From positions 30,001 through 62,000 of the forward strand of contig JAJRVL010000002.1 of NCBI GenBank assembly GCA_024277355.1: a stretch of 32,000 nucleotides of DNA, read 5' to 3'. The notes under the pieces were generated by a model. It was not told the origin of the DNA and ran no database searches. It worked only from the letters and a program-made list of their open reading frames with translations. Of the stretch, positions 7,112 to 23,750 are shown piece by piece. Made by a program: the position numbers and the translations under genes. Origin of the DNA: an archaeon (GTDB lineage Archaea; Iainarchaeota; Iainarchaeia; Iainarchaeales; 1-14-0-10-31-34). Each line of letters starts with the position of its first letter. The first letter of the stretch is position 1.

Positions 7112-9706
7112 TTATTTTTTAAAAAAACTTGCTTTAAATCTTTTCATAAGTAATGAGTTTGTTACAACTGAAACTGAACTAAAAGCCATTGCAGTTCCTG
7201 CAATAACAGGGCTTAATAAAATTCCTGTAAAAGGAAATAAAATTCCTGCTGCAATCGGAATTCCAATTACATTATAAGCAAAAGCCCAGAAAAAATTCTG
7301 TTTTATTTTGTTCATTGCATATTTGCTTAATTCAATTGCAGTAACTACATCTCTTAAATCATTTTTAACTAAAATTACATCTCCTGTTTCAATTGCAATA
7401 TCTGTTCCTGAACCAATTGCAATTCCAATGTCTGCCTGAGCCAAAGCAGGAGCATCATTTATTCCGTCTCCTACCATTGCAACTTTAAGGTTTTCTTTTT
7501 GTAATTCTTTTACTTTTTCTGCTTTTTCTTCAGGCAGAACTTCAGCAAAAACTCTTTCAATTCCAATTTGGTCTGCTATGGCTCTTGCAGTTCTTTCATT
7601 GTCTCCTGAAATCATTATTGTGTCAAGGTTCATTTTATTAAGAATTTTTATTGCTTCAAAAGAATTTTCTTTTAATGTATCGGCTACAGCAATAATTCCT
7701 GCAGGAGTATTGTTAACTGAAATTACAACAGCAGTTTTTCCTTGTTTTTCAAGTTTTTGCAGGGAACTTTCAATAAACTCAGTTTTAATTTTATTTTCTT
7801 CCATTAATTTTCTGTTTCCAAGCAGAATATTTTTTTTATTGTAAACTGCCTGAATTCCTTTTCCGCTGATGGAATTAAAGTTTTCTGGTTCCTTTAAAAT
7901 AATTTTTTGTTCTTTTGATTTTTTGACTATTGCTTCTCCTAAAGGGTGTTCTGATTTATTTTCTATTGCTGCTGCAATTTCTAATACTTCTTTTTCTTTA
8001 AATCCATTTAAAGAAATAATATTTGTTACTTCAGGTTTTCCTTTAGTTAAAGTTCCTGTTTTATCAAAAACAATTGTGTTAAGTTCTCCTGTTTTCTGCA
8101 ATGCTTCAGCATTTTTAATTAATATTCCGTGTTCTGCGCCTAAACCTGTTCCAACCATTACTGCAGTAGGAGTAGCCAAGCCAATTGCACAAGGACATGC
8201 AATAATCATTACACTAATAAAAATAGTTAAAGCAAAAAGAAATGCCTGTCCTCCAATAAAAAACCAGAATAAAGCAGAAACAACCGCAATAATCATTACT
8301 GCAGGAACAAAAACAGAAGCAATTTTGTCTCCTAATTCTTGTATTGGAGCTTTGCTTCCTTGTGCGTCTTCAACAAATTTAATTATTTGTGCTAAAGCAG
8401 TTTCTTCTCCAATCTTTTCTGTTTTAAATTTAAAGCTTCCTGTCTTATTTATTGTTGCTCCAATTACTGTGTCATTAATGTTTTTTTCTACTGGAATACT
8501 TTCGCCTGTAACCATGCTTTCATCAATACTTGAATGACCTGAAATTACTTTGCCGTCAACAGGAATTTTCATTCCGGGTTTAACAATAACAATATCTCCA
8601 ACTAAAACTTCTTCTATTGGAATTTCAATTTCTTTTCCGTTTCTTTCAATTAAAGCAGTTTTTGCCTGCAAGCCCATTAATTTTTTTATTGCTTCAGAAG
8701 TTTTTCCTTTAGCTAATGATTCAAAATATTTTCCTAATAAAATAAATGCAATTAAGAACGCTGCAACTTCAAAATACAAATCTTTTGAACTAAACAAAGA
8801 AGAACCAGTTAAAATTGCAATAACTGCAATTAAACTGTAAACATAAGCAGAACCAACTCCAATTGCCACAAGAGAATCCATATTAGGGTTTTTGTTTAAA
8901 ATTAATGCTTTAAAACCAGAAGTAAAAAATCTTCTTCCAATCCACATCACAGGAGTAGCAAGCAAAAACTGAATTATAGCTTCATTTTGCATAATAAATT
9001 CGGGGACAGGTAATGGGAAAAAATTTGAAAACATTAAATACATTAAAGGAAGTGATAAACCAATTGCACTAAGAAATTTATTTTTATATGATTCAATTTC
9101 TTTTTGTCTTGCTTCTTTTTCTATGTCAGATGTTTCTGTTTTTTCTGCTTTATAGCCTGCGTTATCTATTGCTTTAATTAAATCACTTGTTTTTACTTTA
9201 TCTGAATCAAAAAAAACTGTTGCTTTTTGTGTTGTTAAGTTAGTCTGATAACTTTTCACTCCGTCAATTTTTTCTAAAGTGCTTTCAATTATTCCAATGC
9301 AATGCTGTGATTCCATTCCATGAACTTTTAATATAACTTTATTTTTTCCTTTTTCAGGTTCTTTTTTGATTACTCCATAACCTGCTTTTTTTATTGCTTT
9401 TTCAAATAAACCTGAATTGGCTTTATTTTTATCAAAAACAATTGTTGCTTTTTCTGTTGCATAATTAACATTAGCAGATTTAACTCCTTCAACTTTATTT
9501 AATGCTTTTTCTATTGTTAAAGCACAGGAAGCACAATGCATATCTTTAATCAAAATGCTTTGTTTTGAATCAGAAATTAAAGGGTGTTTGTGTTCTTTAG
9601 TTTTTTCTTCCCCTAAAAACTTTTCATAACAATTCTTTGAACAAAAAAAGTATTCTTTTCCGTTCTTAACTGTCTTAAATTTAGCTTTTTCTTTTTCTAT
9701 TTCCAT
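7112..9706 (-). CDS. copA: Copper-translocating P1B-type ATPase (YHS-like N-terminus + 2 HMA domains)
   Basis: 864 aa with TGES, the CPC motif ([11 protein letters not shown]), DKTGT, SEHPLG and [13 protein letters not shown]1 has MHCASC. HMA2 is degenerate (GMESQHC, a single Cys). The N-terminus [15 protein letters not shown] is the C-terminal half of a YHS/TRASH motif. The first half (DPSCG) lies upstream of the ATG (see findings), so the true start is uncertain. Confidence 0.95.
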
Positions 9707-14765: not shown

Positions 14766-15437
14766 TTAAATCAGAACTCTTGTTATTATTACAAAACCTA
14801 AAATAACACTAATAAGTCCGCTTGTAATTTTTATTGAATTATGGAATTTATCTGCAGCAGTTAATTGAGATGGAAATGCAATTAATGCACTTACAAAAAA
14901 CATGCCTATCACTGAACCTAATCCAAAAAGCAGTATATAAATAATGCCAATTAATACTGAATTTACTGTTGATAAAACTAAGACTGTTATTGAAGCACTT
15001 CCTGCTAATCAATGCACTATTCCAACAAAAAAAGATTTATGAGAATGGTTGTGTGAATAAGAATCCTTGTGGGAATGAAAATGAATATGTGTTGTTTTTT
15101 TATGTCTGTGTAAATGCAGGTGAATTTTATTTTTAATTACTTTTATTAGTAAATCAAACCCAAGTAATACTAAAATAATTCCTGCAGAAAATTCCATTGC
15201 TGACGCAATAGTTTCAGGAATAATTGTTTTAGAAATCAAAACAAAAAAGCCAATTAAAAGTAAAATAAAACTATGTCCTAACCCCCATGCAATTCCAGAA
15301 AAAGATGCTTGTTTCATGCTTTTTGTCTGGCTGGCAATAGTTGAAACAGCAGCAATATGGTCTGGTTCAAATGCATGCATTAAACCAAGCATTAATCCAA
15401 AACCAGCCATTGCCAGAAACTGAGGTAATTCAATCAT
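14766..15437 (-). pseudogene. NicO/NiCoT-superfamily (UreH-like) metal transporter with a His-rich loop, interrupted by one in-frame TGA (15009-15011)
   Basis: The first part has the GLMHAFEPDHIAAV motif and the loop HLHLHRHKKTTHIHFHSHKDSYSHNHSH. After ..FFVGIVH-TGA the same frame stays open for 80 more codons (LAGSASITVLVL..GLGSVIGMFFVSAL..) down to TAA at 14766-14768. The downstream part has no start codon or SD of its own. Confidence 0.7.
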
Positions 15438-16213: not shown

Positions 16214-16780
16214 CTAAATAATTTTAATAAATGAATAAATAATTGACAAAACAATTACTGCCAGCCCTATAACAAAAAACACTTTAAATAATTTATCTAA
16301 ATTAAATGAAATTATTTTTCTTAATGCCAAGTTACTTTCTTTTTTAACTAAATTATGTTTTTTTATTACTGAAAGCATATAAATTGCGCCAAGTGCATTA
16401 GAAAAAACTGCTATAAGCATTAAAGAAGTCTGATACTGGCTTATTAAAACAGCAAAAACAGACAATCCTAATACTGCAAGTAAATCAGTTAAATGGTGTG
16501 CACAGCAGGCAGCCATTGAAACGCCTGAAACTCCTGCTGAACCCGCAACACTGACTTTTGCAGGAGAATTATTAAGAAAATTTTTTATGTAAAAATATAG
16601 TCCTGTTTGAACACCAAAACCAACTGAAATAAATAAAATAAAATACCAGATTCTCTGGAATTCATTTAATGCATGTTCAACTGAATTTGCAATAATTAAA
16701 ACTGCAAAATAAAATCCAATCATTCCAAAAAACGCAAGCAACCCAAAAAAATAATGGCTTTTTTTATTTATTAAATTCAT
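16214..16780 (-). CDS. Multi-TM membrane protein with intramembrane CCAHH motif (paralog C)
   Basis: 188 aa. AGSAGVSGVSMAACCAHHLTDLLAVLG sits in the same relative position as the CPVC/CPAC helices of paralogs A and B. Confidence 0.6.
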   Translation of the reverse strand: MNLINKKSHYFFGLLAFFGMIGFYFAVLIIANSVEHALNEFQRIWYFILFISVGFGVQTGLYFYIKNFLNNSPAKVSVAGSAGVSGVSMAACCAHHLTDLLAVLGLSVFAVLISQYQTSLMLIAVFSNALGAIYMLSVIKKHNLVKKESNLALRKIISFNLDKLFKVFFVIGLAVIVLSIIYSFIKII

Positions 16781-16801: not shown

Positions 16802-16948
16802 TCAGCAAAACTCGCATTTATTGTCTTTTGAAAGCAGTTCATTTGCTTTTTTTTCATAGTTTTCAGAACATTTTCCTGAACAAAAATTTTCATATTTATT
16901 TAAAGCATTAAATTTTTTCCTGCAGTAAAAACATTTTTTTTCAGTCAT
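16802..16948 (-). CDS. 48-aa TRASH/YHS-like mini-protein (not in the ORF track)
   Basis: The minus strand encodes MTEKKCFYCRKKFNALNKYENFCSGKCSENYEKKANELLSKDNKCEFC with a TGA stop, preceded by GGAGGGAATAAA-ATG. The pattern CxxC..(13 aa)..FCSxxC plus a C-terminal CxxC resembles small archaeal TRASH metallochaperones. It fills the gap between two operon genes. Confidence 0.6.
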   Translation of the reverse strand: MTEKKCFYCRKKFNALNKYENFCSGKCSENYEKKANELLSKDNKCEFC

Positions 16949-16959
16949 TTTATTCCCTC

Positions 16960-18174
16960 CTAAAAAGCAAACAAAAACAGTATTCCTGCAAGTATCAGCA
17001 ATACAATTCCCATTAATAATTTCATGTTTCTTTTGTTTTGTTTTTCCCAGTTAGTGATTTTTTCTGTCATTTTTTTGTTGCCTGCAACTAATAAAATTAT
17101 TATTAACGGAACAACAAACATTATATTGTAAATTGTAAGGAAAACCATTCCTTGCATAAATGTTGTTTGAATTGCAAGCAATGAAAGTATTCCTACATAA
17201 ACTCCTCCGCTGCATGGAAAAGTGCATAATCCAACCAAAAAGCCAAGTATTGCAACAGAAACAAGAGTTAAGTTTGTCATTCTCTTTTTTATCATTGGAG
17301 AAGCAAAAGAAGGCATTTTTAAGCTAAACCATTTGCCGTAAAAAAAGTAATCTTTAAAGTTAATTAAAGCCAAAAACAGCATTAAAAACACACTGATTTT
17401 TCCAAATAAATGCGGAATTCCTGTAATTAATATTGCCTGAAGTAAACCTAATCCAATCAAAAAATAAGCAACAAAAATTGCTGCAATAAATACTCCTCCA
17501 ACTTTCCAGACTTCTGTTTTTGTGCGGTTAATCGAATAAAGAAATGCAATGAAAAATAATAATACTCCGAAAGCACAGGGATTAATTCCATCTAATAATC
17601 CTGTAATTAAAACCAAAGGTAAAAGCTGAATGAAATCCAAATTATTATTTTTTAATTCTTTTGGGGTTGTCAGTGAATTCTTGTTTTTATTAAACCAGTT
17701 TAAATAAACTGAAATTGGTTTATTAATTTTGTATTCTTTTATTTCTCCTTTAAATGCCCAGACTTTATAGTTTTTTGCGTTTTCCATTTCGTCTTGAAAC
17801 ACAACAATTTTTTCAATGCTTTTATCAATTAAAATATCTTTGATTATTTGTTCAGGGACATGCCCTTCAAGAATTATTTTGTTGTCAATAAAAATAGTAA
17901 AATGACCTTGTAATTGAGATGGAATACTTAATTTTTTGCTTAATTCATTTAATTCAATTCTATTTTCTTTTTCACTTATAAAATCTTTTTTTTCAACTTT
18001 AATGCTGTATGATTCAAGCAATGGTTCAATGTTGTCTTCTATATACATTGTACAGCCGTGGCATGCTTTATTATAGTAAATTACTGCGTTTTTGTATTCT
18101 GTTGCAAAAGAAAACGCAGGAACTAACAGTAAAAATAATAATAATACAATAATTTTTTTTGTCATTTTTTTCAT
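16960..18174 (-). CDS. Fusion of a secreted CopG/DUF411-like domain with a CcdA/DsbD-type transmembrane thiol-disulfide transfer domain
   Basis: 404 aa. After the signal peptide comes VIYYNKACHGCTMYIED..IPSQLQGHFTIFIDNKIILEGHVPEQIIKDIL; the EGHVP block and an early Cys motif are as I recall for DUF411. The 6-TM half has GINPCAFGVLLFF and LCTFPCSGGVYVG, one Cys in each half as in CcdA. Confidence 0.75.
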   Translation of the reverse strand: MKKMTKKIIVLLLFLLLVPAFSFATEYKNAVIYYNKACHGCTMYIEDNIEPLLESYSIKVEKKDFISEKENRIELNELSKKLSIPSQLQGHFTIFIDNKIILEGHVPEQIIKDILIDKSIEKIVVFQDEMENAKNYKVWAFKGEIKEYKINKPISVYLNWFNKNKNSLTTPKELKNNNLDFIQLLPLVLITGLLDGINPCAFGVLLFFIAFLYSINRTKTEVWKVGGVFIAAIFVAYFLIGLGLLQAILITGIPHLFGKISVFLMLFLALINFKDYFFYGKWFSLKMPSFASPMIKKRMTNLTLVSVAILGFLVGLCTFPCSGGVYVGILSLLAIQTTFMQGMVFLTIYNIMFVVPLIIILLVAGNKKMTEKITNWEKQNKRNMKLLMGIVLLILAGILFLFAF

Positions 18175-18590
18175 CTCACAATATTTGCTTTTAATTCTAT
18201 TTCTATTTCAGGTTTTTCAATATCATTGCTTTTTACATAAACAATTCTTTCTATTTTTCCTTCAATACCTTTTTCCATTAAATTCGGGTCAATTGTTACA
18301 AGAAGTTTTGCTGTTTCTCCTGAATTAATTAATTTTTTGTCAATTGTTCCTTTTGTGCATCCGCAGGAAGTGCTTATTCCTGTTATTTCAAGAATTCCTG
18401 TTCCCTTATTTTTAACAAAAAAAACATATTCTATTTTTTCGTAAGGAACATTTCCAAAATCATAAAATTCAGGGGTAATTTCTATTTTTGGTTTATTGTT
18501 TTCTAAACTTTGATTTTCAGGAATTGAAATACACCCTGAAAAAATAATCAATGTTATAATCCCTATTCCTAAAAGAAATTTTTTTTTCAT
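18171..18590 (-). CDS. DUF1573-like lipoprotein (SCGCT motif)
   Basis: 139 aa. The signal peptide ends in FSGC. YDFGNVPYEKIEYVFFVKNKGTGILEITGISTSCGCTKG matches the DUF1573 pattern. A 4-nt ATGA overlap links it to the next gene. Confidence 0.75.
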   Translation of the reverse strand: MKKKFLLGIGIITLIIFSGCISIPENQSLENNKPKIEITPEFYDFGNVPYEKIEYVFFVKNKGTGILEITGISTSCGCTKGTIDKKLINSGETAKLLVTIDPNLMEKGIEGKIERIVYVKSNDIEKPEIEIELKANIVR

Positions 18591-18593
18591 TTT

Positions 18594-19187
18594 TTATGCC
18601 ACCTGGTTGACATTTATTTTTACTTTTTTTTCTGAATTTAAGGGATCGTCTGAATAAATTGAAACTATCCTTGTTACTGGCCCTCTTAAATCAGGGTGTG
18701 CAGTAGGATCATAAAAAATCTTTAATTGTGCTTCTTCTCCTGGTTCTAATATTTGTTTATAGCCGGGATTATTATGCATGCCAAATACAGGGCTTTGAAT
18801 TCCATTTATTATTATAACAGCGGTAGTGCACATACAAGAAGACTTTAATCCGTTTAATACTAGTTTTCCTTTTCCTTTATTTATTATTTCCATTGAAGTG
18901 CTTACTGTTCCTTTTCTAATGCTGACTGTTCCAAAATCATGAACTTCAGAACTAATTGTTATTAAGCCTGAACCTCTTGGATCAGGAGAATTATCAATTA
19001 TTCCCTGAATTAAAAACAAAGCAATTAATCCTAAAACTAAAACACCTATTCCAATTTTAATTATTTTTTTTCCTGTTTTTCTTCTGCTTAAATTTTTTTC
19101 TTCTTTATCTGTTTTTTCCTGTCTTAATTTTTTTTTAAGTTCTTTTTTTTCTCTTTTGCTTAATCCTTCAAAATCAGGTCTATTCAT
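18594..19187 (-). CDS. DUF1573-like protein, CMCT variant with a Met/His insertion
   Basis: 197 aa with a Lys-rich head, a TM segment and HDFGTVSIRKGTVSTSMEIINKGKGKLVLNGLKSSCMCTTAVIIINGIQSPVFGMHNNPGY. It is a paralog of 19188..20003. Confidence 0.65.
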   Translation of the reverse strand: MNRPDFEGLSKREKKELKKKLRQEKTDKEEKNLSRRKTGKKIIKIGIGVLVLGLIALFLIQGIIDNSPDPRGSGLITISSEVHDFGTVSIRKGTVSTSMEIINKGKGKLVLNGLKSSCMCTTAVIIINGIQSPVFGMHNNPGYKQILEPGEEAQLKIFYDPTAHPDLRGPVTRIVSIYSDDPLNSEKKVKINVNQVA

Positions 19188-20003
19188 TTATTCCACCTGA
19201 TCAATGTCAATTCTTACTTTTTTTTCAAAATCAACTGAGTCATTTGAAAAAACACTAATAACTCTGACTAAATGTTGTCCTTCAAGTCCTGAATGAACTG
19301 TTGGATCGTAATAAATTTTTAATTGAGCCTGTTGTTTTGGAGGAATAGTTACTGACCATCCTTTTGGATTGCCGTGCATGCTCATTCCAAATATTGGACC
19401 TTCTACTCCATTAAAAATTATTGAAGCAGTAGTGCACATACAGGAAGAATCCATATTATTTATTACTAAATCGCTTTCTCCGTCATTTCTTATTGTCATA
19501 ATTTTGCTTACTGTTCCTTTTCTAACGCTTACTTCTCCAAAATCATATGAATCCGGAGTAATAATTATTTTAGGCCTGTTTTCAGGGGCTCTTTCGGCCA
19601 ATTCAAGTCTTATTTCTTCTTCTAATTTTTTTCCTTCATCTGAAAGAGATTCCATTCCGTATTTTTTTACCATTTTAATTATTGCATCTGTTTTAGAAAT
19701 TTCTGTTTTCTCTAAAGAATCAATATACTCTAGTCTTTCTTTGGCTGAACCGCAGCAAATATTTTCTTTATCTAAAGGCCTGTTGCAGCATGAACAAATA
19801 AATAATCCATAAACTTCGTCTGCTTTAAATGGTTCTGCTAAAATTATTTTTCCTGTAACAGGCGGCATAGTTTTCTCAGAATTTAATGCAACTGGAGTCT
19901 GGGTTATAAATGAATTTGCTAAAAAAATTAAAGAAATAACAATTAAAGCCATTGCTGTAAAATACAATTGATTTTTTTTACTTTTTATTTTTTCTTTATC
20001 CAT
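19188..20003 (-). CDS. Cys-cluster N-domain + DUF1573-like CMCT-variant domain
   Basis: 271 aa with a TM anchor, FICSCCNRPLDKENICCGSAKE, then YDFGEVSVRKGTVSKIMTIRNDGESDLVINNMDSSCMCTTASIIFNGVEGPIFGMSMHGNP. Confidence 0.65.
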   Translation of the reverse strand: MDKEKIKSKKNQLYFTAMALIVISLIFLANSFITQTPVALNSEKTMPPVTGKIILAEPFKADEVYGLFICSCCNRPLDKENICCGSAKERLEYIDSLEKTEISKTDAIIKMVKKYGMESLSDEGKKLEEEIRLELAERAPENRPKIIITPDSYDFGEVSVRKGTVSKIMTIRNDGESDLVINNMDSSCMCTTASIIFNGVEGPIFGMSMHGNPKGWSVTIPPKQQAQLKIYYDPTVHSGLEGQHLVRVISVFSNDSVDFEKKVRIDIDQVE

Positions 20004-20496: not shown

Positions 20497-21213
20497 CTAG
20501 AGTTTTTCTCTTGCCTTGTCTAAAATTAGTGTTTCTTTTCCCATTTTTTTATCTAATTTTCTTTCTTCTAAAATGTCTAATTCTTCAAAATGAATTGGAA
20601 GAAGGCCAAAAGTTCCTGCCTTGACCGAAGAAAAAAATCTTTTAATATTGAAAAAAGAGCCTTTTAAATGCATTAATTCGTGCTTTATTACTGTTCTTAA
20701 TTCATTGTCTTCAAGCAGTTCAATTAATCCTGTTGAAATAAAAATTACTTTTTTGTATCCTGAAACGACAAAAGCATTTGGTTCTGAATTCACAAAAACA
20801 ATTATTTCGGGTTTTGTTATTGAAAGGTTTGCTGCTTCTTCTAAAGCAATTTTTTCTACTTTTTTGTCTTTTGTTTTTGTTATTCCTATTTTCATAAGCA
20901 AAGGAGAAAAAACATATGAGACAATAAAAAATAAGCCTGCAGCAATTAATGCTGTCTGGTGTGCTAAATGAAAAATTGTTGAATAATGTGAATTAGCAAA
21001 AGCAAGAATTAAAAGAAAAGTTATTATTGAAGTTGAAAGAATTGCTTTTGTAAAAAGACTTTGTTTTATTGAAAGTTTTTTTCTAAGTAAAATAAGAATT
21101 AAAATTGAAACAAGGATAAGGGTTATTAAAAAATAGTTAAAAGATGCGAGAAAAGGACTTTGCCCCGCAATACATTCGGTAGCGCATTGTAGTGTTGAAA
21201 CTCCTTCGCCCAT
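20497..21213 (-). CDS. BlaR1/MecR1-like (M56/M48-type) membrane zinc metalloprotease lacking a C-terminal sensor domain
   Basis: 238 aa with three TM segments, then EPNAFVVSGYKKVIFISTGLIELLEDNELRTVIKHELMHL (HExxH). The N-terminal extracytoplasmic end carries CATEC. It is directly downstream of the BlaI-like gene (10-nt gap). Confidence 0.7.
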   Translation of the reverse strand: MGEGVSTLQCATECIAGQSPFLASFNYFLITLILVSILILILLRKKLSIKQSLFTKAILSTSIITFLLILAFANSHYSTIFHLAHQTALIAAGLFFIVSYVFSPLLMKIGITKTKDKKVEKIALEEAANLSITKPEIIVFVNSEPNAFVVSGYKKVIFISTGLIELLEDNELRTVIKHELMHLKGSFFNIKRFFSSVKAGTFGLLPIHFEELDILEERKLDKKMGKETLILDKAREKL

Positions 21214-21223
21214 TTAAAACCTC

Positions 21224-21586
21224 TTATTTAAGTTGTTTTCTCAAATAAGCTACAGAAGAACTTCCAAAAGTATTTTTCAGAAAAGAAAGGAATTTGTCAG
21301 AAATTTCCTCGCTTAATTCTTCTCTGCTGTATTTAGGAGAATAAATGTAAATTAAGCCGCCTTTTCCTTTGAGTATTTTTCTTGTAAGTATTCCTTTTGA
21401 GTGCATTCTGTCTGTTGTAACTGTTATAGTAGTATAAGCAACGTCATTCTTTTTTTTCACTAAATCAAATATTTCTCTGCAGGTGGCTTTTTCTTTTTTC
21501 CATAATGAATCCATTATGTCTGATTCAAGTTTTCCAACTAAAGAATTTAGTCCTTTTTTTTCAAAGTCAATTTTATTTAAATCCAT
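21224..21586 (-). CDS. BlaI/MecI/CopY-family winged-helix repressor
   Basis: 120 aa. LGKLESDIMDSLWKKEKATCREIFDLV..VAYTTITVTTDRMHSKGILTRK..YIYSPK follows the penicillinase-repressor pattern. It has no C-terminal CxCxxxxCxC copper hook. Confidence 0.8.
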   Translation of the reverse strand: MDLNKIDFEKKGLNSLVGKLESDIMDSLWKKEKATCREIFDLVKKKNDVAYTTITVTTDRMHSKGILTRKILKGKGGLIYIYSPKYSREELSEEISDKFLSFLKNTFGSSSVAYLRKQLK

Positions 21587-21674: not shown

Positions 21675-22328
21675 ATGAATAATACAAAGTTTTTTCTTGT
21701 ATTGCTTGTTGCTTTAACAGCATTAACTCAGATTTATAATCTTTCACTTGAAAATTCAATTTCTTCTGATTTAATAAGTAATGTTGTTTTATCTTCTAAT
21801 GCGGATTCAGCTAACACAGTGACAGCAAATTTATCTAACAGCAATACACAGGAAAAAAAAACGCTTTCTCTTTCTGATATAATTCCTTCCGGGGTTCCTG
21901 AAATTTATGGAACAGAATTAGGAATAAGCTATGATGAACCTGTTGCAGGTTTAGCTGTATTAAAAAAACTTGATACTGCAATTTCTCTTGAAGGAAACTT
22001 ACAGGAAAGATATATTAAAGTAGGAACAAGCATTTCATGCGAATTTTGCTGCGGAGCAAAATCAATTACTTTTTCTGATGGAAGAGCAGCTTGTGGTTGT
22101 GCTCATTCTTATGCAATGAGAGGTTTAGCAAAATATTTGCTTCAAAATCACGCAGACAAATTTACTGATCAGGAAATTTTAAATGAATTAGTTAAATGGA
22201 AAACTTTGTTTTTTCCAAAACAAATGACTAAAAGAGCATTAGAATTAGCTGCACAAGAAGGAACTTATAATCAGGAACTTTTGAATAAAGTTAATTCAAG
22301 TGTTCCAGACATGGTAGGAGGTTGTTAA
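21675..22328 (+). CDS. Secreted Cys-cluster protein ending in PDMVGGC
   Basis: 217 aa with an N-terminal signal/anchor, SCEFCCGAKSITFSDGRAACGCAHSYAMRGL and the C-terminus SSVPDMVGGC followed by the stop. Confidence 0.65.
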   Translation: MNNTKFFLVLLVALTALTQIYNLSLENSISSDLISNVVLSSNADSANTVTANLSNSNTQEKKTLSLSDIIPSGVPEIYGTELGISYDEPVAGLAVLKKLDTAISLEGNLQERYIKVGTSISCEFCCGAKSITFSDGRAACGCAHSYAMRGLAKYLLQNHADKFTDQEILNELVKWKTLFFPKQMTKRALELAAQEGTYNQELLNKVNSSVPDMVGGC

Positions 22329-22604: not shown

Positions 22605-23750
22605 TTGAATAAGAGTTTTTTTATGTCTTCAAAAAAAATGTTTCTTCCAAAAAAACCAATGATTTTAGCGGTTATTGCTCTTTTAGCTTTAATTATTTTT
22701 TCTGCTTTTTTTAGTATTCAGTCAATGAATAATGAATTAACTGAAAAAGAAAACAATTCTTTGGAAGAAAATTCTTTAAAAGACAATAATGAAATTAATA
22801 ATGCACTTCCTTTTGTTAAAATACTTTTAGTTAAAAATAACTGTGAAGACTGCTTTGATATTGATTTAATGGCGCAGCAAATTTATTCTTTTGATATCAA
22901 TGTTTTGTAAGTAAAAACAATTAATGCTGATTCAGAAGAAGGAATAAATTTAATTAAAATGCATGATTTGAATACTTTGCCCGCAATTATTATTAATGGT
23001 GAATTCAAAGGAACTGACTTAGAAACCCAATGGAAAACAATTGGTGAAGAAAAAAACGGAGTATTAATTGCAAGCAGGCCTCCTTATTATTCTTTAGAAG
23101 AAAAAAGAGTTAAAGGAAAAGTTGATTTATTATTAATAAAAAATTCTTCTTGTAAAGACTGCATTGACCTGAATTTTTTTGCTGACGACTTAAGAGAATT
23201 AGGCATTATAATTGAAAATGAAAGAACAATTGAATTTGATTCAGAAGAAGGACAATCTCAGATTGAATTTTATTTTATTGACAGAGTTCCTGTGGTTCTT
23301 TTAACCAGTGAAATTGGAGAGTATTCTTTTTTGAAACCTTTATGGAGCCAGATAGGAATAATTGCTCCTGATGGAAGTTATATTTACACTGAAGCTGTTC
23401 CTTTTTTTGATTTATTTTCAGAAGAAACTAAAGGGTTAGTTGAAGTAACAAGATTAATTGATGCAAATTGTTCTGATTGTGTTGATGTAAATGCAATTGT
23501 TTCTCCTTTAACTAAAATGGGCTTAAAAATAATCAAAGAAGAAACCTTTGATGTTTCATCTGAAAAAGGAAAAGAATTAATTGAAAAATATTCTATTACT
23601 AAAATTCCCACAATAATTGTTTCAGAGGAAGCTGAAGAATACACTGAATTTTTTGTTGTCTGGCCTAAAGTAGGAACAAAAGAAGAAGATGGATTTTTTG
23701 TTTTCAGAAATCTTGAAGTTTTAGGAAGCAATTTTATTACTTTAAAGTAA
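22605..23750 (+). pseudogene. Membrane-anchored protein with three thioredoxin-like CxDC repeats, interrupted by one in-frame TAA (22908-22910)
   Basis: Track ORFs 22605..22910 and 22959..23750 are in the same frame, separated only by a TAA. The repeats (~105 aa each) carry NCEDC, SCKDC and NCSDC plus a cis-Pro-like (L/V/I)P(A/V/T)(I/V) element. The stop falls inside repeat 1 (INVL*VKTINADSEEG, compare IIIENERTIEFDSEEG and LKIIKEETFDVSSEKG). The likely real start is the ATG at 22623. Confidence 0.65.

What the first reader, a model, noticed from the sequence alone, without database searches (positions are those of the whole stretch)
16960..18174. Fusion of a CopG/DUF411-like secreted domain to a CcdA-type membrane electron conduit
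The N-terminal ~180 aa resemble DUF411/CopG copper-resistance proteins. They have an early Cys motif, here CHGC rather than the CxCC I recall, and the EGHVP block. The C-terminal half is a 6-TM CcdA/DsbD-like module with one Cys per half (NPCAFG, FPCSGG). CcdA normally passes cytoplasmic reducing equivalents to separate thioredoxin-like partners. A covalent fusion to a copper-site domain would suggest reductant-driven copper redox chemistry, or repair of a Cu-poisoned thiol site, outside the cell.
Basis: partly seen in the sequence, partly recalled or inferred. Interest (0 to 1): 0.65.

Follow-up and report, generated by a model that had tools for sequence, protein, structure and literature searches.

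The report
CopG-like thiol domain fused to CcdA
A small archaeon, and at least 591 other archaeal and bacterial species genomes, fuse a membrane electron conduit (CcdA) to an outward-facing two-cysteine relative of the copper protein CopG; the gene sits in a conserved operon with three cysteine-bearing surface proteins and often beside copper pumps, which points to an undescribed cell-surface thiol and copper protection system.

Summary
Window 16960-18174 (-) is one intact 404-aa gene: signal peptide, a thioredoxin-fold domain whose closest solved structure is CopG/DUF411 (Foldseek top hit 6WIS; hhalign 96.7 %), then a six-helix CcdA/DsbD membrane domain (hhalign 96.3 %; 5VKV second hit).

It is not an assembly artefact. 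At least 591 GTDB species genomes from both domains encode relatives. In three tested cases the standalone domain gene is followed by a separate membrane gene 40-43 % identical to our membrane half.

It is not a canonical CopG. The defining CxCC is CxxC throughout, and the SCHT cysteine and one methionine are lost. Two His and one Met are kept in 84-90 % of representatives.

The gene is the last in a conserved cassette of three DUF1573 proteins with an SCxC motif; the first also has a CcmH-like CxCC domain. DUF1573 is adjacent in 51/64 fused loci versus 0/16 membrane-only relatives. P1B heavy-metal ATPases lie within 5 kb in 20/64. I found no cytochrome c assembly gene in the host genome.

Best reading: a self-contained DsbD-like reductant relay serving cysteine sites of copper-stress surface proteins. 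Direct copper chemistry on the domain is not excluded.

This is a new variant of a known kind. Other first-stage notes on this window had already flagged the surrounding island.

The parts
16960..18174 (-). Whole gene, 404 aa: signal peptide + CopG-like CxxC thioredoxin-fold domain + 6-helix CcdA-type membrane domain
   Evidence: ORF list; AF2 model pLDDT 87.4; Foldseek 6WIS first and 5VKV second
18103..18174 (-). Residues 1-24: predicted Sec signal peptide (MKKMTKKIIVLLLFLLLVPAFSFA), which would place the following domain outside the cell
   Evidence: Read directly from the sequence; helix 3-17 followed by a low-confidence linker at 19-24 in the model. Cleavage is inferred.
17659..18102 (-). 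Residues 25-172: CopG/DUF411-like domain, made of a beta-alpha-beta-alpha-beta-beta-alpha thioredoxin core (29-116) plus a beta3-alpha extension (123-167)
   Evidence: hhalign against DUF411 96.7 %, E 3.6e-10; Foldseek 6WIS prob 1.00; the only PDB sequence hit is 6WIS, E 0.62
18052..18063 (-). C38-H-G-C41, the CxxC pair. It corresponds to Cys1 and Cys4 of the DUF411 CGCC motif; the third cysteine is absent.
   Evidence: Invariant in alignment A1; 99-100 % conserved across 142 divergent representatives; mapping
17854..17868 (-). E103-G-H-V-P107 block shared with DUF411. H105 is kept in 85 % and P107 in 95 % of representatives. H91 (17902-17904) aligns with the His of the DUF411 SCHT motif.
17785..17796 (-). 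Q127-D-E-M130. M130 aligns with the last Met of the DUF411 GMPxGSPGM loop and is kept in 90 % of representatives; the first Met of that loop is lost.
16963..17643 (-). Residues 178-404: CcdA/DsbD-type membrane domain, six long helices, with basic loops on the predicted cytoplasmic side
   Evidence: hhalign against Pfam-certified DsbD_TM proteins 96.3 %; Foldseek 5VKV prob 0.98; PF02683 scores 27.3 bits in the six-frame search
17575..17583 (-). N198-P-C200, the first membrane cysteine. It aligns with the first catalytic Cys of CcdA.
   Evidence: Invariant; aligned
17203..17217 (-). P320-C321-S-G-G, the second membrane cysteine. It aligns with the second catalytic Cys of CcdA.
   Evidence: Invariant; aligned
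18171..18590 (-). DUF1573-C, 139 aa, lipoprotein-like, with an STSCGCT motif. Its stop codon overlaps the start of the fusion gene (ATGA). In other organisms this protein type is fused to the N-terminus of the fusion protein.
   Evidence: Pfam DUF1573 E 9.9e-15; overlap seen; fused forms such as P0106
18594..19187 (-). DUF1573-B, 197 aa: basic cytoplasmic tail + TM anchor + DUF1573 with SSCMCT and a Met/His insert
19188..20003 (-). DUF1573-A, 271 aa: TM anchor + CcmH-like helical domain (C70-S-C-C73 ... C83-C84) + DUF1573 with SSCMCT and a Met/His insert
   Evidence: 18 of 39 family members hit Pfam CcmH, best E 1.9e-6; top PDB profile hits are CcmH 2KW0 and 2HL7, with CPCC aligned on CPKC; AF2 pLDDT 89.7
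16802..16948 (-). 48-aa Cys-rich mini-ORF starting 9 nt after the fusion gene's stop, behind a GGAGGG; possibly a member of the operon
   Evidence: Sequence; weak treble-clef hit, E 0.0029. Not found by phmmer in the other loci.
16214..16780 (-). 188-aa membrane protein with a CCAHH motif; relatives lie near the fusion gene in 12 of 64 other loci
20497..21586 (-). M48/M56-type membrane protease plus a BlaI/CopY-family repressor, upstream of the cassette. The same pair recurs next to the cassette or its split version in L010, L103 and L104.
7112..9706 (-). P1B-type ATPase with one YHS and two HMA domains, in the same island (context only)

Best explanation
The protein is a self-contained, DsbD-like transmembrane thiol-disulfide relay. 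Reducing equivalents from the cytoplasm pass to the membrane cysteine pair of the CcdA domain (C200/C321). From there they pass to the CxxC (C38/C41) of the covalently attached, outward-facing thioredoxin-fold domain, which is of the CopG/DUF411 lineage. The likely cytoplasmic source is the TrxR-like enzyme plus a small glutaredoxin-type redoxin found in the genome.

The fused domain then keeps cysteine sites of surface proteins reduced. The most likely clients are the three co-transcribed DUF1573 proteins (SCxC motif; one also carries a CcmH-like CxCC domain). The chain resembles the DsbD -> CcmG -> CcmH thioreduction branch of cytochrome c maturation, but it operates in an organism where I found no cytochrome c machinery. 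The module belongs to an envelope copper-stress system, in which such thiols either bind Cu(I) or need repair after copper-catalysed oxidation.

Shown: the domain homologies, cysteine conservation, fusion and fission, operon linkage, and the association with copper ATPases. Inferred: the direction of electron flow, the identity of the donor and the clients, and the link to copper physiology.
For: 1. Both halves are homologous to their named families, and all four relay cysteines are effectively invariant.

2. The two cysteines kept in the N-domain are exactly those at the thioredoxin CxxC position of CopG.

3. Fusion and fission both occur. Standalone N-domain genes P0183, P0212 and P0155 are each followed directly by a separate membrane gene 40-43 % identical to our TM half, E 1e-53 to 1e-61.

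4. The four-gene cassette, with the same gene sizes and order, appears in distant homologues L008, L010 and L012. DUF1573 is adjacent in 51 of 64 fused loci versus 0 of 16 membrane-only relatives, Fisher p 2.5e-9. DUF1573-C is fused to the same protein in some lineages. Its stop overlaps our start codon as ATGA.

5. All 88 neighbouring DUF1573 ORFs carry [ST]CxC[T]. Selenoprotein forms of DUF1573 have UGC at this site (PMC9312934, PMC13188914).

6. DUF1573-A has a CcmH-like domain with CPCC aligned on the CcmH active-site CPKC.

7. This is the only DsbD_TM gene in a 96 %-complete genome, and no PF01578 cytochrome c assembly gene was found. A TrxR-like gene and a small Grx-type redoxin are present.

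8. Copper link: a P1B ATPase lies within 5 kb in 20 of 64 fused loci, 10 of them with CPC, YNxxxxP and MxxSS. The window island holds CopA, a cupredoxin, PadR-TRASH and DsbA-like genes.

9. Precedent: ScsB/ScsC, a DsbD-family reductase with a Cu(I)-binding thioredoxin-fold partner that confers copper tolerance (PMC10907172).
Against: - There is no biochemical evidence for the direction of electron flow or for any client.
- H91, H105 and M130 are shared with CopG and kept in 84-90 % of representatives. A plain thiol reductase does not obviously need them, which hints at a metal site on the domain itself.
- The middle residues of the CxxC vary widely (HG, GG, SM, TM, HH, RD, AD, GH). That is unusual for a redox family tuned to one potential.
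- 13 of 64 fused loci lack DUF1573 nearby, and 5 of those have only a copper ATPase. DUF1573 therefore cannot be the sole client.
- The genome's only canonical thioredoxin is itself secreted, so the cytoplasmic donor is assumed rather than identified.
Confidence: 0.55

Rival explanations
1. The fused domain is itself a copper site, a Cys2-His2-Met centre derived from the CopG cluster site. In this reading the protein is an extracytoplasmic copper oxidoreductase. Electrons delivered through CcdA would reduce bound Cu(II) to Cu(I), or hold copper as Cu(I)-thiolate for hand-over to neighbouring proteins.
For: The domain is homologous to CopG, including its C-terminal extension. H91, H105, M130 and Y136 are kept in 84-92 % of representatives and align with conserved CopG residues. 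The middle residues of the CxxC vary, as in metal-binding CxxC motifs. The gene is strongly associated with P1B ATPases and HMA proteins, including 5 loci with no DUF1573. CopG has been proposed to interconvert Cu(I) and Cu(II) (PMC7558416, PMC13707694).
Against: The features reported to define the CopG cluster site are missing from the whole family: CxCC and two adjacent methionines (PMC7558416); the invariant SCHT cysteine of canonical DUF411 is missing too. The His residues are absent from about 15 % of representatives, whereas the cysteines are never lost. Cu(I) is the more toxic form, so producing it outside the cell has no obvious benefit. The tight DUF1573 and CcmH-like linkage is better explained by protein-thiol clients.
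Confidence: 0.22
2. The protein is a thiophilic-metal transporter rather than an electron conduit, analogous to MerP/MerT. The external CxxC domain would capture Cu(I), or another soft metal, and pass it to the membrane cysteine pair, which would move the ion across the membrane.
For: The best NCBIfam hit of the membrane half is the ArsG permease family, although weak (E 3.6e-5). The half-size NicO-like protein in the window (15009-15437) also hits the ArsG model, a hint that these membrane folds are related. The N-domain belongs to a metal-binding lineage. The context is copper-linked.
Against: Both membrane cysteines align exactly with the catalytic cysteines of CcdA, in Pro-Cys motifs. The best structural match for the membrane half is CcdA. 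The operon partners carry redox-type motifs: the CcmH-like CxxC and the UGC selenoprotein relatives (PMC9312934). No transporter of this architecture is known to me.
Confidence: 0.08
3. It is an ordinary cytochrome c biogenesis CcdA, as the source annotations on homologues say, with an accessory domain.
For: JGI and NCBI name many homologues 'cytochrome c biogenesis protein CcdA'. One partner is CcmH-like. A CcmF gene lies about 4 kb from the cassette in the Hydrothermarchaeum locus L008.
Against: The 96 %-complete host genome has no PF01578 match (the CcmC/CcmF/CcsA family), while 11 of 14 control genomes match, 9 above the cutoff. The family is common in DPANN archaea and Patescibacteria, which from my own knowledge have very small genomes and mostly lack respiratory chains. 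The conserved partners are DUF1573 proteins and copper ATPases, not cytochrome maturation genes.
Confidence: 0.04
4. The fusion is an assembly or gene-calling artefact: two genes joined by a missing stop codon.
For: None was found. The split arrangement does exist in other organisms.
Against: Hundreds of independent assemblies across both domains encode the same continuous ORF with 92-100 % coverage. AlphaFold models it confidently as one chain. The linker region (W160, F161, P186) is itself conserved.
Confidence: 0.01

Closest known systems
CcdA with a separate thioredoxin-like partner (CcdA-ResA/CcmG type; solved CcdA structure 5VKV)
   Same: Six-helix membrane domain with one Pro-Cys in each half, aligned at profile level and structurally. 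It would hand electrons to an extracytoplasmic thioredoxin-fold CxxC protein.
   Different: Here the partner is fused to the N-terminus and belongs to the CopG/DUF411 lineage, not the TlpA/ResA/CcmG lineage. I found no cytochrome c maturation genes in the host genome.
DsbD / ScsB fused membrane reductases, and the ScsB-ScsC copper-tolerance system
   Same: A single polypeptide combines a DsbD-family membrane core with an N-terminal extracytoplasmic cysteine-pair domain. ScsB/ScsC are Cu(I)-binding thiol oxidoreductases that link copper and redox stress (PMC10907172, PMC3322552).
   Different: From my own knowledge, DsbD and ScsB have an eight-helix core, an immunoglobulin-like alpha domain and a C-terminal thioredoxin gamma domain. 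This protein has a six-helix core, one thioredoxin-fold domain at the N-terminus and no gamma domain. Its partners are DUF1573 proteins, not DsbC/DsbG/ScsC-type proteins.
CopG (DUF411, PF04214; Pseudomonas aeruginosa structure 6WIS)
   Same: Same fold, including the C-terminal extension (Foldseek prob 1.00 with 121 of 125 residues aligned; hhalign 96.7 %). Shares the EGHVP block, the His of SCHT, one Met and a Tyr. Both occur in copper-resistance gene neighbourhoods.
   Different: CxxC replaces the defining CxCC. The SCHT cysteine and the first Met of GMPxGSPGM are lost. The domain scores below the Pfam threshold. CopG is a soluble periplasmic protein, whereas this domain is tethered to, or encoded next to, a CcdA.
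System I thioreduction branch DsbD -> CcmG -> CcmH
   Same: The cassette has the same three kinds of component: a CcdA/DsbD membrane conduit, a thioredoxin-fold CxxC domain, and a CcmH-like helical domain whose CPCC aligns on the CcmH CPKC.
   Different: The host genome shows no haem-handling Ccm or Ccs components. The CcmH-like domain is fused to a DUF1573 Ig-like domain with its own CxC motif.
Mycobacterial DipZ-type CcdA-thioredoxin fusions (recalled from memory, not tested here)
   Same: A CcdA-like membrane domain covalently fused to an extracytoplasmic thioredoxin-like domain.
   Different: In DipZ the thioredoxin-like domain is C-terminal and of a different subfamily. No DUF1573 partners or CopG relationship are known for it.

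Membership tests
CcdA / DsbD_TM (PF02683) | One conserved cysteine in each half of the membrane domain, each preceded by proline, aligned with the catalytic cysteines | tested here: met
   NPC200 and FPC321 are invariant in 63 sequences. They align with the sPC and IPC of Pfam-certified DsbD_TM proteins.
CcdA / DsbD_TM (PF02683) | Score at or above the Pfam gathering threshold (27.1 bits) | tested here: inconclusive
   25.8 bits in the protein scan and 27.3 bits in the six-frame genome search. The profile-profile comparison is clear: 96.3 %, E 1.9e-9.
CcdA / DsbD_TM (PF02683) | Six-helix fold resembling solved CcdA | tested here: met
   The AF2 model has six long helices after residue 181. Foldseek matches 5VKV with prob 0.98 and target-normalised TM 0.47.
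CcdA / DsbD_TM (PF02683) | Transfers electrons from cytoplasmic thioredoxin to an extracytoplasmic acceptor | not testable with these tools
   Only the presence of a TrxR-like gene and a small Grx-type redoxin in the genome could be shown.
CcdA as a 'cytochrome c biogenesis protein' (functional label) | Co-occurs with cytochrome c assembly machinery (CcsA/CcmC/CcmF, PF01578) | tested here: not met
   No PF01578 match in the 96 %-complete genome; controls match in 11 of 14 genomes.
CopG / DUF411 (PF04214) | Thioredoxin fold with a C-terminal extension | tested here: met
   Foldseek top hit 6WIS_B: prob 1.00, 121 aligned columns of 125, target-normalised TM 0.57.
CopG / DUF411 (PF04214) | Sequence homology to the family | tested here: met
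   hhalign 96.7 %, E 3.6e-10 over 103 columns against six plasmid DUF411 proteins. The single-sequence Pfam score is below threshold: 15.4 bits against 27.
CopG / DUF411 (PF04214) | Conserved CxCC motif that binds the tetranuclear copper cluster | tested here: not met
   CxxC in all 120 close homologues, and C38/C41 at 99-100 % in 142 representatives; I saw no CxCC at this site. Canonical DUF411 proteins have an invariant CGCC. The defining role of this motif is taken from PMC7558416.
CopG / DUF411 (PF04214) | SCHT cysteine and the two methionines of GMPxGSPGM | tested here: not met
   The SCHT Cys is replaced (LQGHF) and only the last Met is kept, as QDEM.
CopG / DUF411 (PF04214) | Binds copper | not testable with these tools
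   Needs metal-binding assays on the purified domain.
DsbD / ScsB architecture | Ig-like N-terminal alpha domain, eight-helix core and C-terminal thioredoxin gamma domain | tested here: not met
   The N-terminal domain has a thioredoxin fold, the core has six helices, and there is no C-terminal soluble domain. NCBIfam DsbD scores only 19.4 bits against a cutoff of 330.

The most novel reading that the evidence does not exclude
The fused domain is a previously unrecognised mononuclear or binuclear copper centre (Cys2-His2-Met) descended from the CopG cluster site and wired directly to the cytoplasmic thioredoxin pool through CcdA. That would make it a thioredoxin-powered copper reductase or copper-thiolate hand-over station on the cell surface. 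The DUF1573 proteins (CxC plus a Met/His insert) would be a new family of Cu(I)-binding surface proteins that take copper expelled by the neighbouring CopA pump.
Probability: 0.2. Interest if true: 0.8.

Novelty: new variant of a known kind. Interest (0 to 1): 0.6.

Why it matters
- **A new branch of the DsbD/CcdA reductant-export systems.** The receiving domain comes from the copper-protein lineage CopG rather than from the usual TlpA/ResA/DsbC families. This suggests how a redox fold and a metal-site fold can interconvert (CxxC and CxCC).
- **First functional context for DUF1573.** This is a large uncharacterised domain family with selenoprotein members. Here it appears as the client of a dedicated reductant conduit, and a CcmH-like domain appears working outside cytochrome c maturation.
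- **Relevance to small-genome lineages.** The cassette is common in DPANN archaea, Patescibacteria and Chloroflexota, whose envelope redox and metal homeostasis are almost unknown. In the 1.13-Mb genome studied here it is the only DsbD-family gene.
- **Annotation.** The current label 'cytochrome c biogenesis protein CcdA' is probably misleading for this family.

Tried and rejected
- **Word-index search with the isolated N-domain.** It found only two short, probably truncated proteins. The exhaustive search was needed to find the standalone and variant architectures.
- **The primary CopG structure paper.** It could not be read by DOI or PMC id. The defining features of CopG are therefore taken from a review (PMC7558416) and from my own alignment of six plasmid DUF411 proteins.
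- **Single-sequence phmmer of the N-domain.** As far as I could see it found no canonical CxCC DUF411 protein. The relationship is visible only at profile or structure level.
- **Foldseek on the DUF1573-A model.** It returned generic Ig/PapD-like folds (top hit 2QSV, uncharacterised) and no metallochaperone, so it says nothing about function.
- **Model coordinates are not exposed.** I could not measure whether C38, C41, H91, H105 and M130 cluster in space. Their proximity is inferred from thioredoxin-fold geometry and from the CopG alignment.
- A range that was not a multiple of three (fixed in 71-73). An off-by-one column mapping (fixed in 87). A first hhalign run that used a truncated master sequence (redone in 92). 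My regular expressions for the Met/His insert and the CxCC..CC domain were too strict, so those counts are not used.
- **Rejected readings.** Assembly artefact, and genuine cytochrome c maturation.
Full report
**1. The observation**

The window carries an intact 404-aa ORF on the minus strand at 16960-18174.

Single-sequence family scans are weak for both halves. Pfam DsbD_TM scores 25.8 bits against a cutoff of 27.1, and DUF411 scores 15.4 against 27. NCBIfam offers only faint ArsG, TsoB and DsbD hits.

**2. Both domain assignments hold at profile and structure level**

A search of the 5.8-billion-protein collection returned more than 900 hits. The top 120 are all about 400 aa long and cover 92-100 % of the query.

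In a 63-sequence alignment (44-84 % identity) the four cysteines are invariant. So are N35, H91, G104, H105, P107, Q127 and M130 in the N-terminal part.

An AlphaFold model built on this alignment is confident (mean pLDDT 87.4). After a signal peptide it shows:
- a beta-alpha-beta-alpha-beta-beta-alpha thioredoxin-type core (residues 29-116), with the CxxC at the start of helix 1;
- a small beta3-alpha extension (123-167);
- six long membrane helices.

Foldseek against the PDB ranks CopG (6WIS) first: prob 1.00, 121 of its 125 residues aligned, TM 0.57 normalised to the target. The CcdA NMR structure 5VKV is second (prob 0.98). The only PDB sequence hit of the family profile is also 6WIS, and it is weak (E 0.62).

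For a proper profile-profile test I retrieved six annotated DUF411 genes from copper and silver resistance plasmids and aligned them. hhalign of our N-domain columns against them gives 96.7 % probability, E 3.6e-10, over 103 columns. The membrane half against four Pfam-certified DsbD_TM proteins gives 96.3 %, E 1.9e-9, over 198 columns, and both of our cysteines fall on theirs.

**3. A CopG relative, but not a canonical CopG**

Canonical DUF411 proteins have invariant CGCC, SCHT, EGHVP and GMPxGSPGM motifs. A review states that CopG binds its tetranuclear copper cluster through the CxCC motif and two adjacent methionines (PMC7558416).

The hhalign mapping shows what our family keeps and what it has lost:

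| CopG/DUF411 feature | In this family |
|---|---|
| Cys1 and Cys4 of CxCC (the thioredoxin CxxC positions) | kept (C38, C41) |
| Third cysteine of CxCC | lost |
| His of SCHT | kept (H91) |
| Cys of SCHT | lost |
| EGHVP block | kept (H105) |
| Last Met of GMPxGSPGM | kept (M130) |
| First Met of GMPxGSPGM | lost |
| Conserved Tyr | kept (Y136) |

Across 142 representatives at 50 % identity or less, conservation is: C38 99 %, C41 100 %, H91 84 %, H105 85 %, M130 90 %, Y136 92 %. The cysteines are indispensable. The His and Met residues are strongly but not universally kept. The middle residues of the CxxC vary widely.

**4. The fusion is real, old, and also exists split**

A scan of GTDB species genomes found at least 591 relatives:
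- Archaea: Micrarchaeota and Nanohaloarchaea (DPANN), Hydrothermarchaeota, Thermoplasmata, Halobacteria and methanogens.
- Bacteria: Chloroflexota, many Patescibacteria, Bipolaricaulota, Thermotogae, Proteobacteria and Cyanobacteria, including a Phormidium plasmid.

The exhaustive HMMER search with the N-domain alone revealed four architectures:
- domain + CcdA (about 400 aa);
- DUF1573 + domain + CcdA (about 530 aa);
- a tandem-domain form (P0126);
- a roughly 190-aa standalone form with a signal peptide and a C-terminal anchor, usually with CGHC.

In all three standalone cases I examined, the next gene encodes a separate membrane protein 40-43 % identical to our whole membrane half (E 1e-53 to 1e-61), with both cysteines present. 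Split and fused versions in the same order show that the two parts work together, and they rule out an assembly artefact.

**5. The gene is the last member of a conserved cassette**

Upstream, on the same strand, lie three DUF1573 genes:
- A: 19188-20003, 271 aa.
- B: 18594-19187, 197 aa.
- C: 18171-18590, 139 aa.

The stop codon of C overlaps our start codon as ATGA.

The same four genes, with the same sizes and order, occur beside homologues that share only 47-51 % identity: Hydrothermarchaeum (L008) and two metagenomic contigs (L010, L012).

Across 80 named loci, DUF1573 genes lie on the same strand within 5 kb in 51 of the 64 loci whose match includes the N-domain. None of the 16 loci that match only the membrane part has one (Fisher p 2.5e-9). 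The position varies by lineage (upstream, downstream or fused), but the linkage persists. All 88 of these DUF1573 ORFs carry [ST]CxC[T]. Selenoprotein forms of DUF1573 have UGC at this site (PMC9312934, PMC13188914), which marks it as the functional centre.

Protein A has an extra helical domain with an invariant C70-x-C-C73 ... C84. 18 of 39 family members hit Pfam CcmH (best E 1.9e-6). The best PDB profile hits are the two CcmH structures, with our CPCC aligned on the CcmH active-site CPKC.

The cassette therefore has the same three kinds of component as the DsbD -> CcmG -> CcmH thioreduction branch of cytochrome c maturation.

**6. It is not cytochrome c maturation here**

The host assembly is 1.13 Mb and 96 % complete. 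Searches of it showed:
- no PF01578 assembly protein, while 11 of 14 control genomes match;
- this gene as the only DsbD_TM match;
- all clear DUF1573 genes inside this cassette.

A TrxR-like gene (E 1.9e-93) and a small glutaredoxin-type redoxin (75 bits) could supply electrons. The only canonical thioredoxin is itself secreted (WCPSC behind a signal peptide), so it may be another client rather than the donor.

**7. The copper link**

The window's island holds a YHS/HMA P1B ATPase, two DsbA-like proteins, a cupredoxin, a PadR-TRASH regulator, DUF302, a rhodanese, a NicO-like protein and a BlaI/M48 pair.

Among the 64 fused loci, 20 have a P1B-type ATPase within 5 kb:
- 10 are long ORFs with CPC, YNxxxxP, MxxSS and DKTGT.
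- 1 has CPC but runs off the end of the locus.
- 4 are full-length but lack CPC.
- 5 are fragments cut by the end of the locus or contig.

Five more loci have only small HMA proteins. Five of the 13 loci without DUF1573 still have the ATPase. For a gene present once or twice per genome, my rough estimate is that a random 10-kb window would contain one less than 1 % of the time. That figure is an inference, not a computed control.

A CCAHH membrane protein like the one at 16214-16780 recurs in 12 of 64 loci. The BlaI/M48 pair recurs beside the cassette or its split form in L010, L103 and L104.

**8. Interpretation**

The most economical mechanism is a DsbD-like relay:
cytoplasmic reductant -> C200/C321 in the membrane -> C38/C41 on the tethered CopG-type thioredoxin domain -> cysteine motifs of the DUF1573 and CcmH-like proteins (and perhaps other surface proteins).

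This would operate within a copper-stress envelope module. The ScsB/ScsC system is a documented precedent: a DsbD-family reductase with a Cu(I)-binding thioredoxin-fold partner (PMC10907172).

I rate that at about 0.2. A Mer-like metal-transport reading is possible but weak. Cytochrome c maturation and an assembly artefact are effectively excluded.

**9. Novelty**

I found no paper describing a DUF411-CcdA fusion or any function for DUF1573. No curated model captures the family, and source names are 'CcdA' or 'hypothetical'.

CcdA-thioredoxin fusions and DsbD/ScsB are known kinds of system. This one is a new variant, with a new receiver-domain lineage and a new conserved partner set.

Other first-stage notes on this window had already flagged the island, the DUF1573 trio and the mini-ORF. 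I re-checked the parts I use.

Noticed in passing
window 15009-15437 (-): The NicO-like protein is only 142 aa and matches just the first half of the Pfam NicO profile (positions 2-137 of 287). An earlier scan note reports an in-frame TGA at its end. I did not examine the stop codon.
   Followed up: no
window 16802-16948 (-): A 48-aa Cys-rich mini-ORF starts 9 nt after the fusion gene's stop, behind a GGAGGG. It gives a weak treble-clef (DUF2116) hit, E 0.0029. phmmer did not find it in the 80 other loci.
   Followed up: partly
L087-L102 (Chloroflexota loci matching only the membrane half): Relatives of the membrane domain that lack the CopG-like domain have no DUF1573 neighbours. They do sit next to cupredoxin genes in 9 of 16 loci and copper ATPases in 3 of 16, so this whole CcdA subfamily may be copper-linked.
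   Followed up: partly
own genome, contig C2:9912-10232 (-), locus L107: The genome's only Pfam Thioredoxin hit is a secreted, lipoprotein-like protein with WCPSC. It could be a further client of the sole CcdA.
   Followed up: no
P0126 (593 aa, from the representative search): A homologue with two tandem CopG-like domains before the CcdA part. The second copy has lost the first cysteine of the CxxC (SPDC).
   Followed up: no
L099 (Phormidium sp. plasmid pPhorR1S1_1, CP143274.1): The fusion gene, with two DUF1573 genes downstream, is carried on a 153-kb cyanobacterial plasmid. The module may therefore be mobile.
   Followed up: no
window 21675-22328 (+) and 22959-23750 (+): Relatives of these two island proteins each recur within 5 kb of the fusion gene in 10 of 64 other loci, mostly Patescibacteria. 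One is a secreted protein without a family hit; the other is weakly thioredoxin-like.
   Followed up: partly
P0165, P0193, P0199, P0228 (representative search): A sub-branch of the fused family has HPC and FGCTAG in place of NPC and FPCSGG in the membrane domain, together with CGHC in the N-domain.
   Followed up: partly
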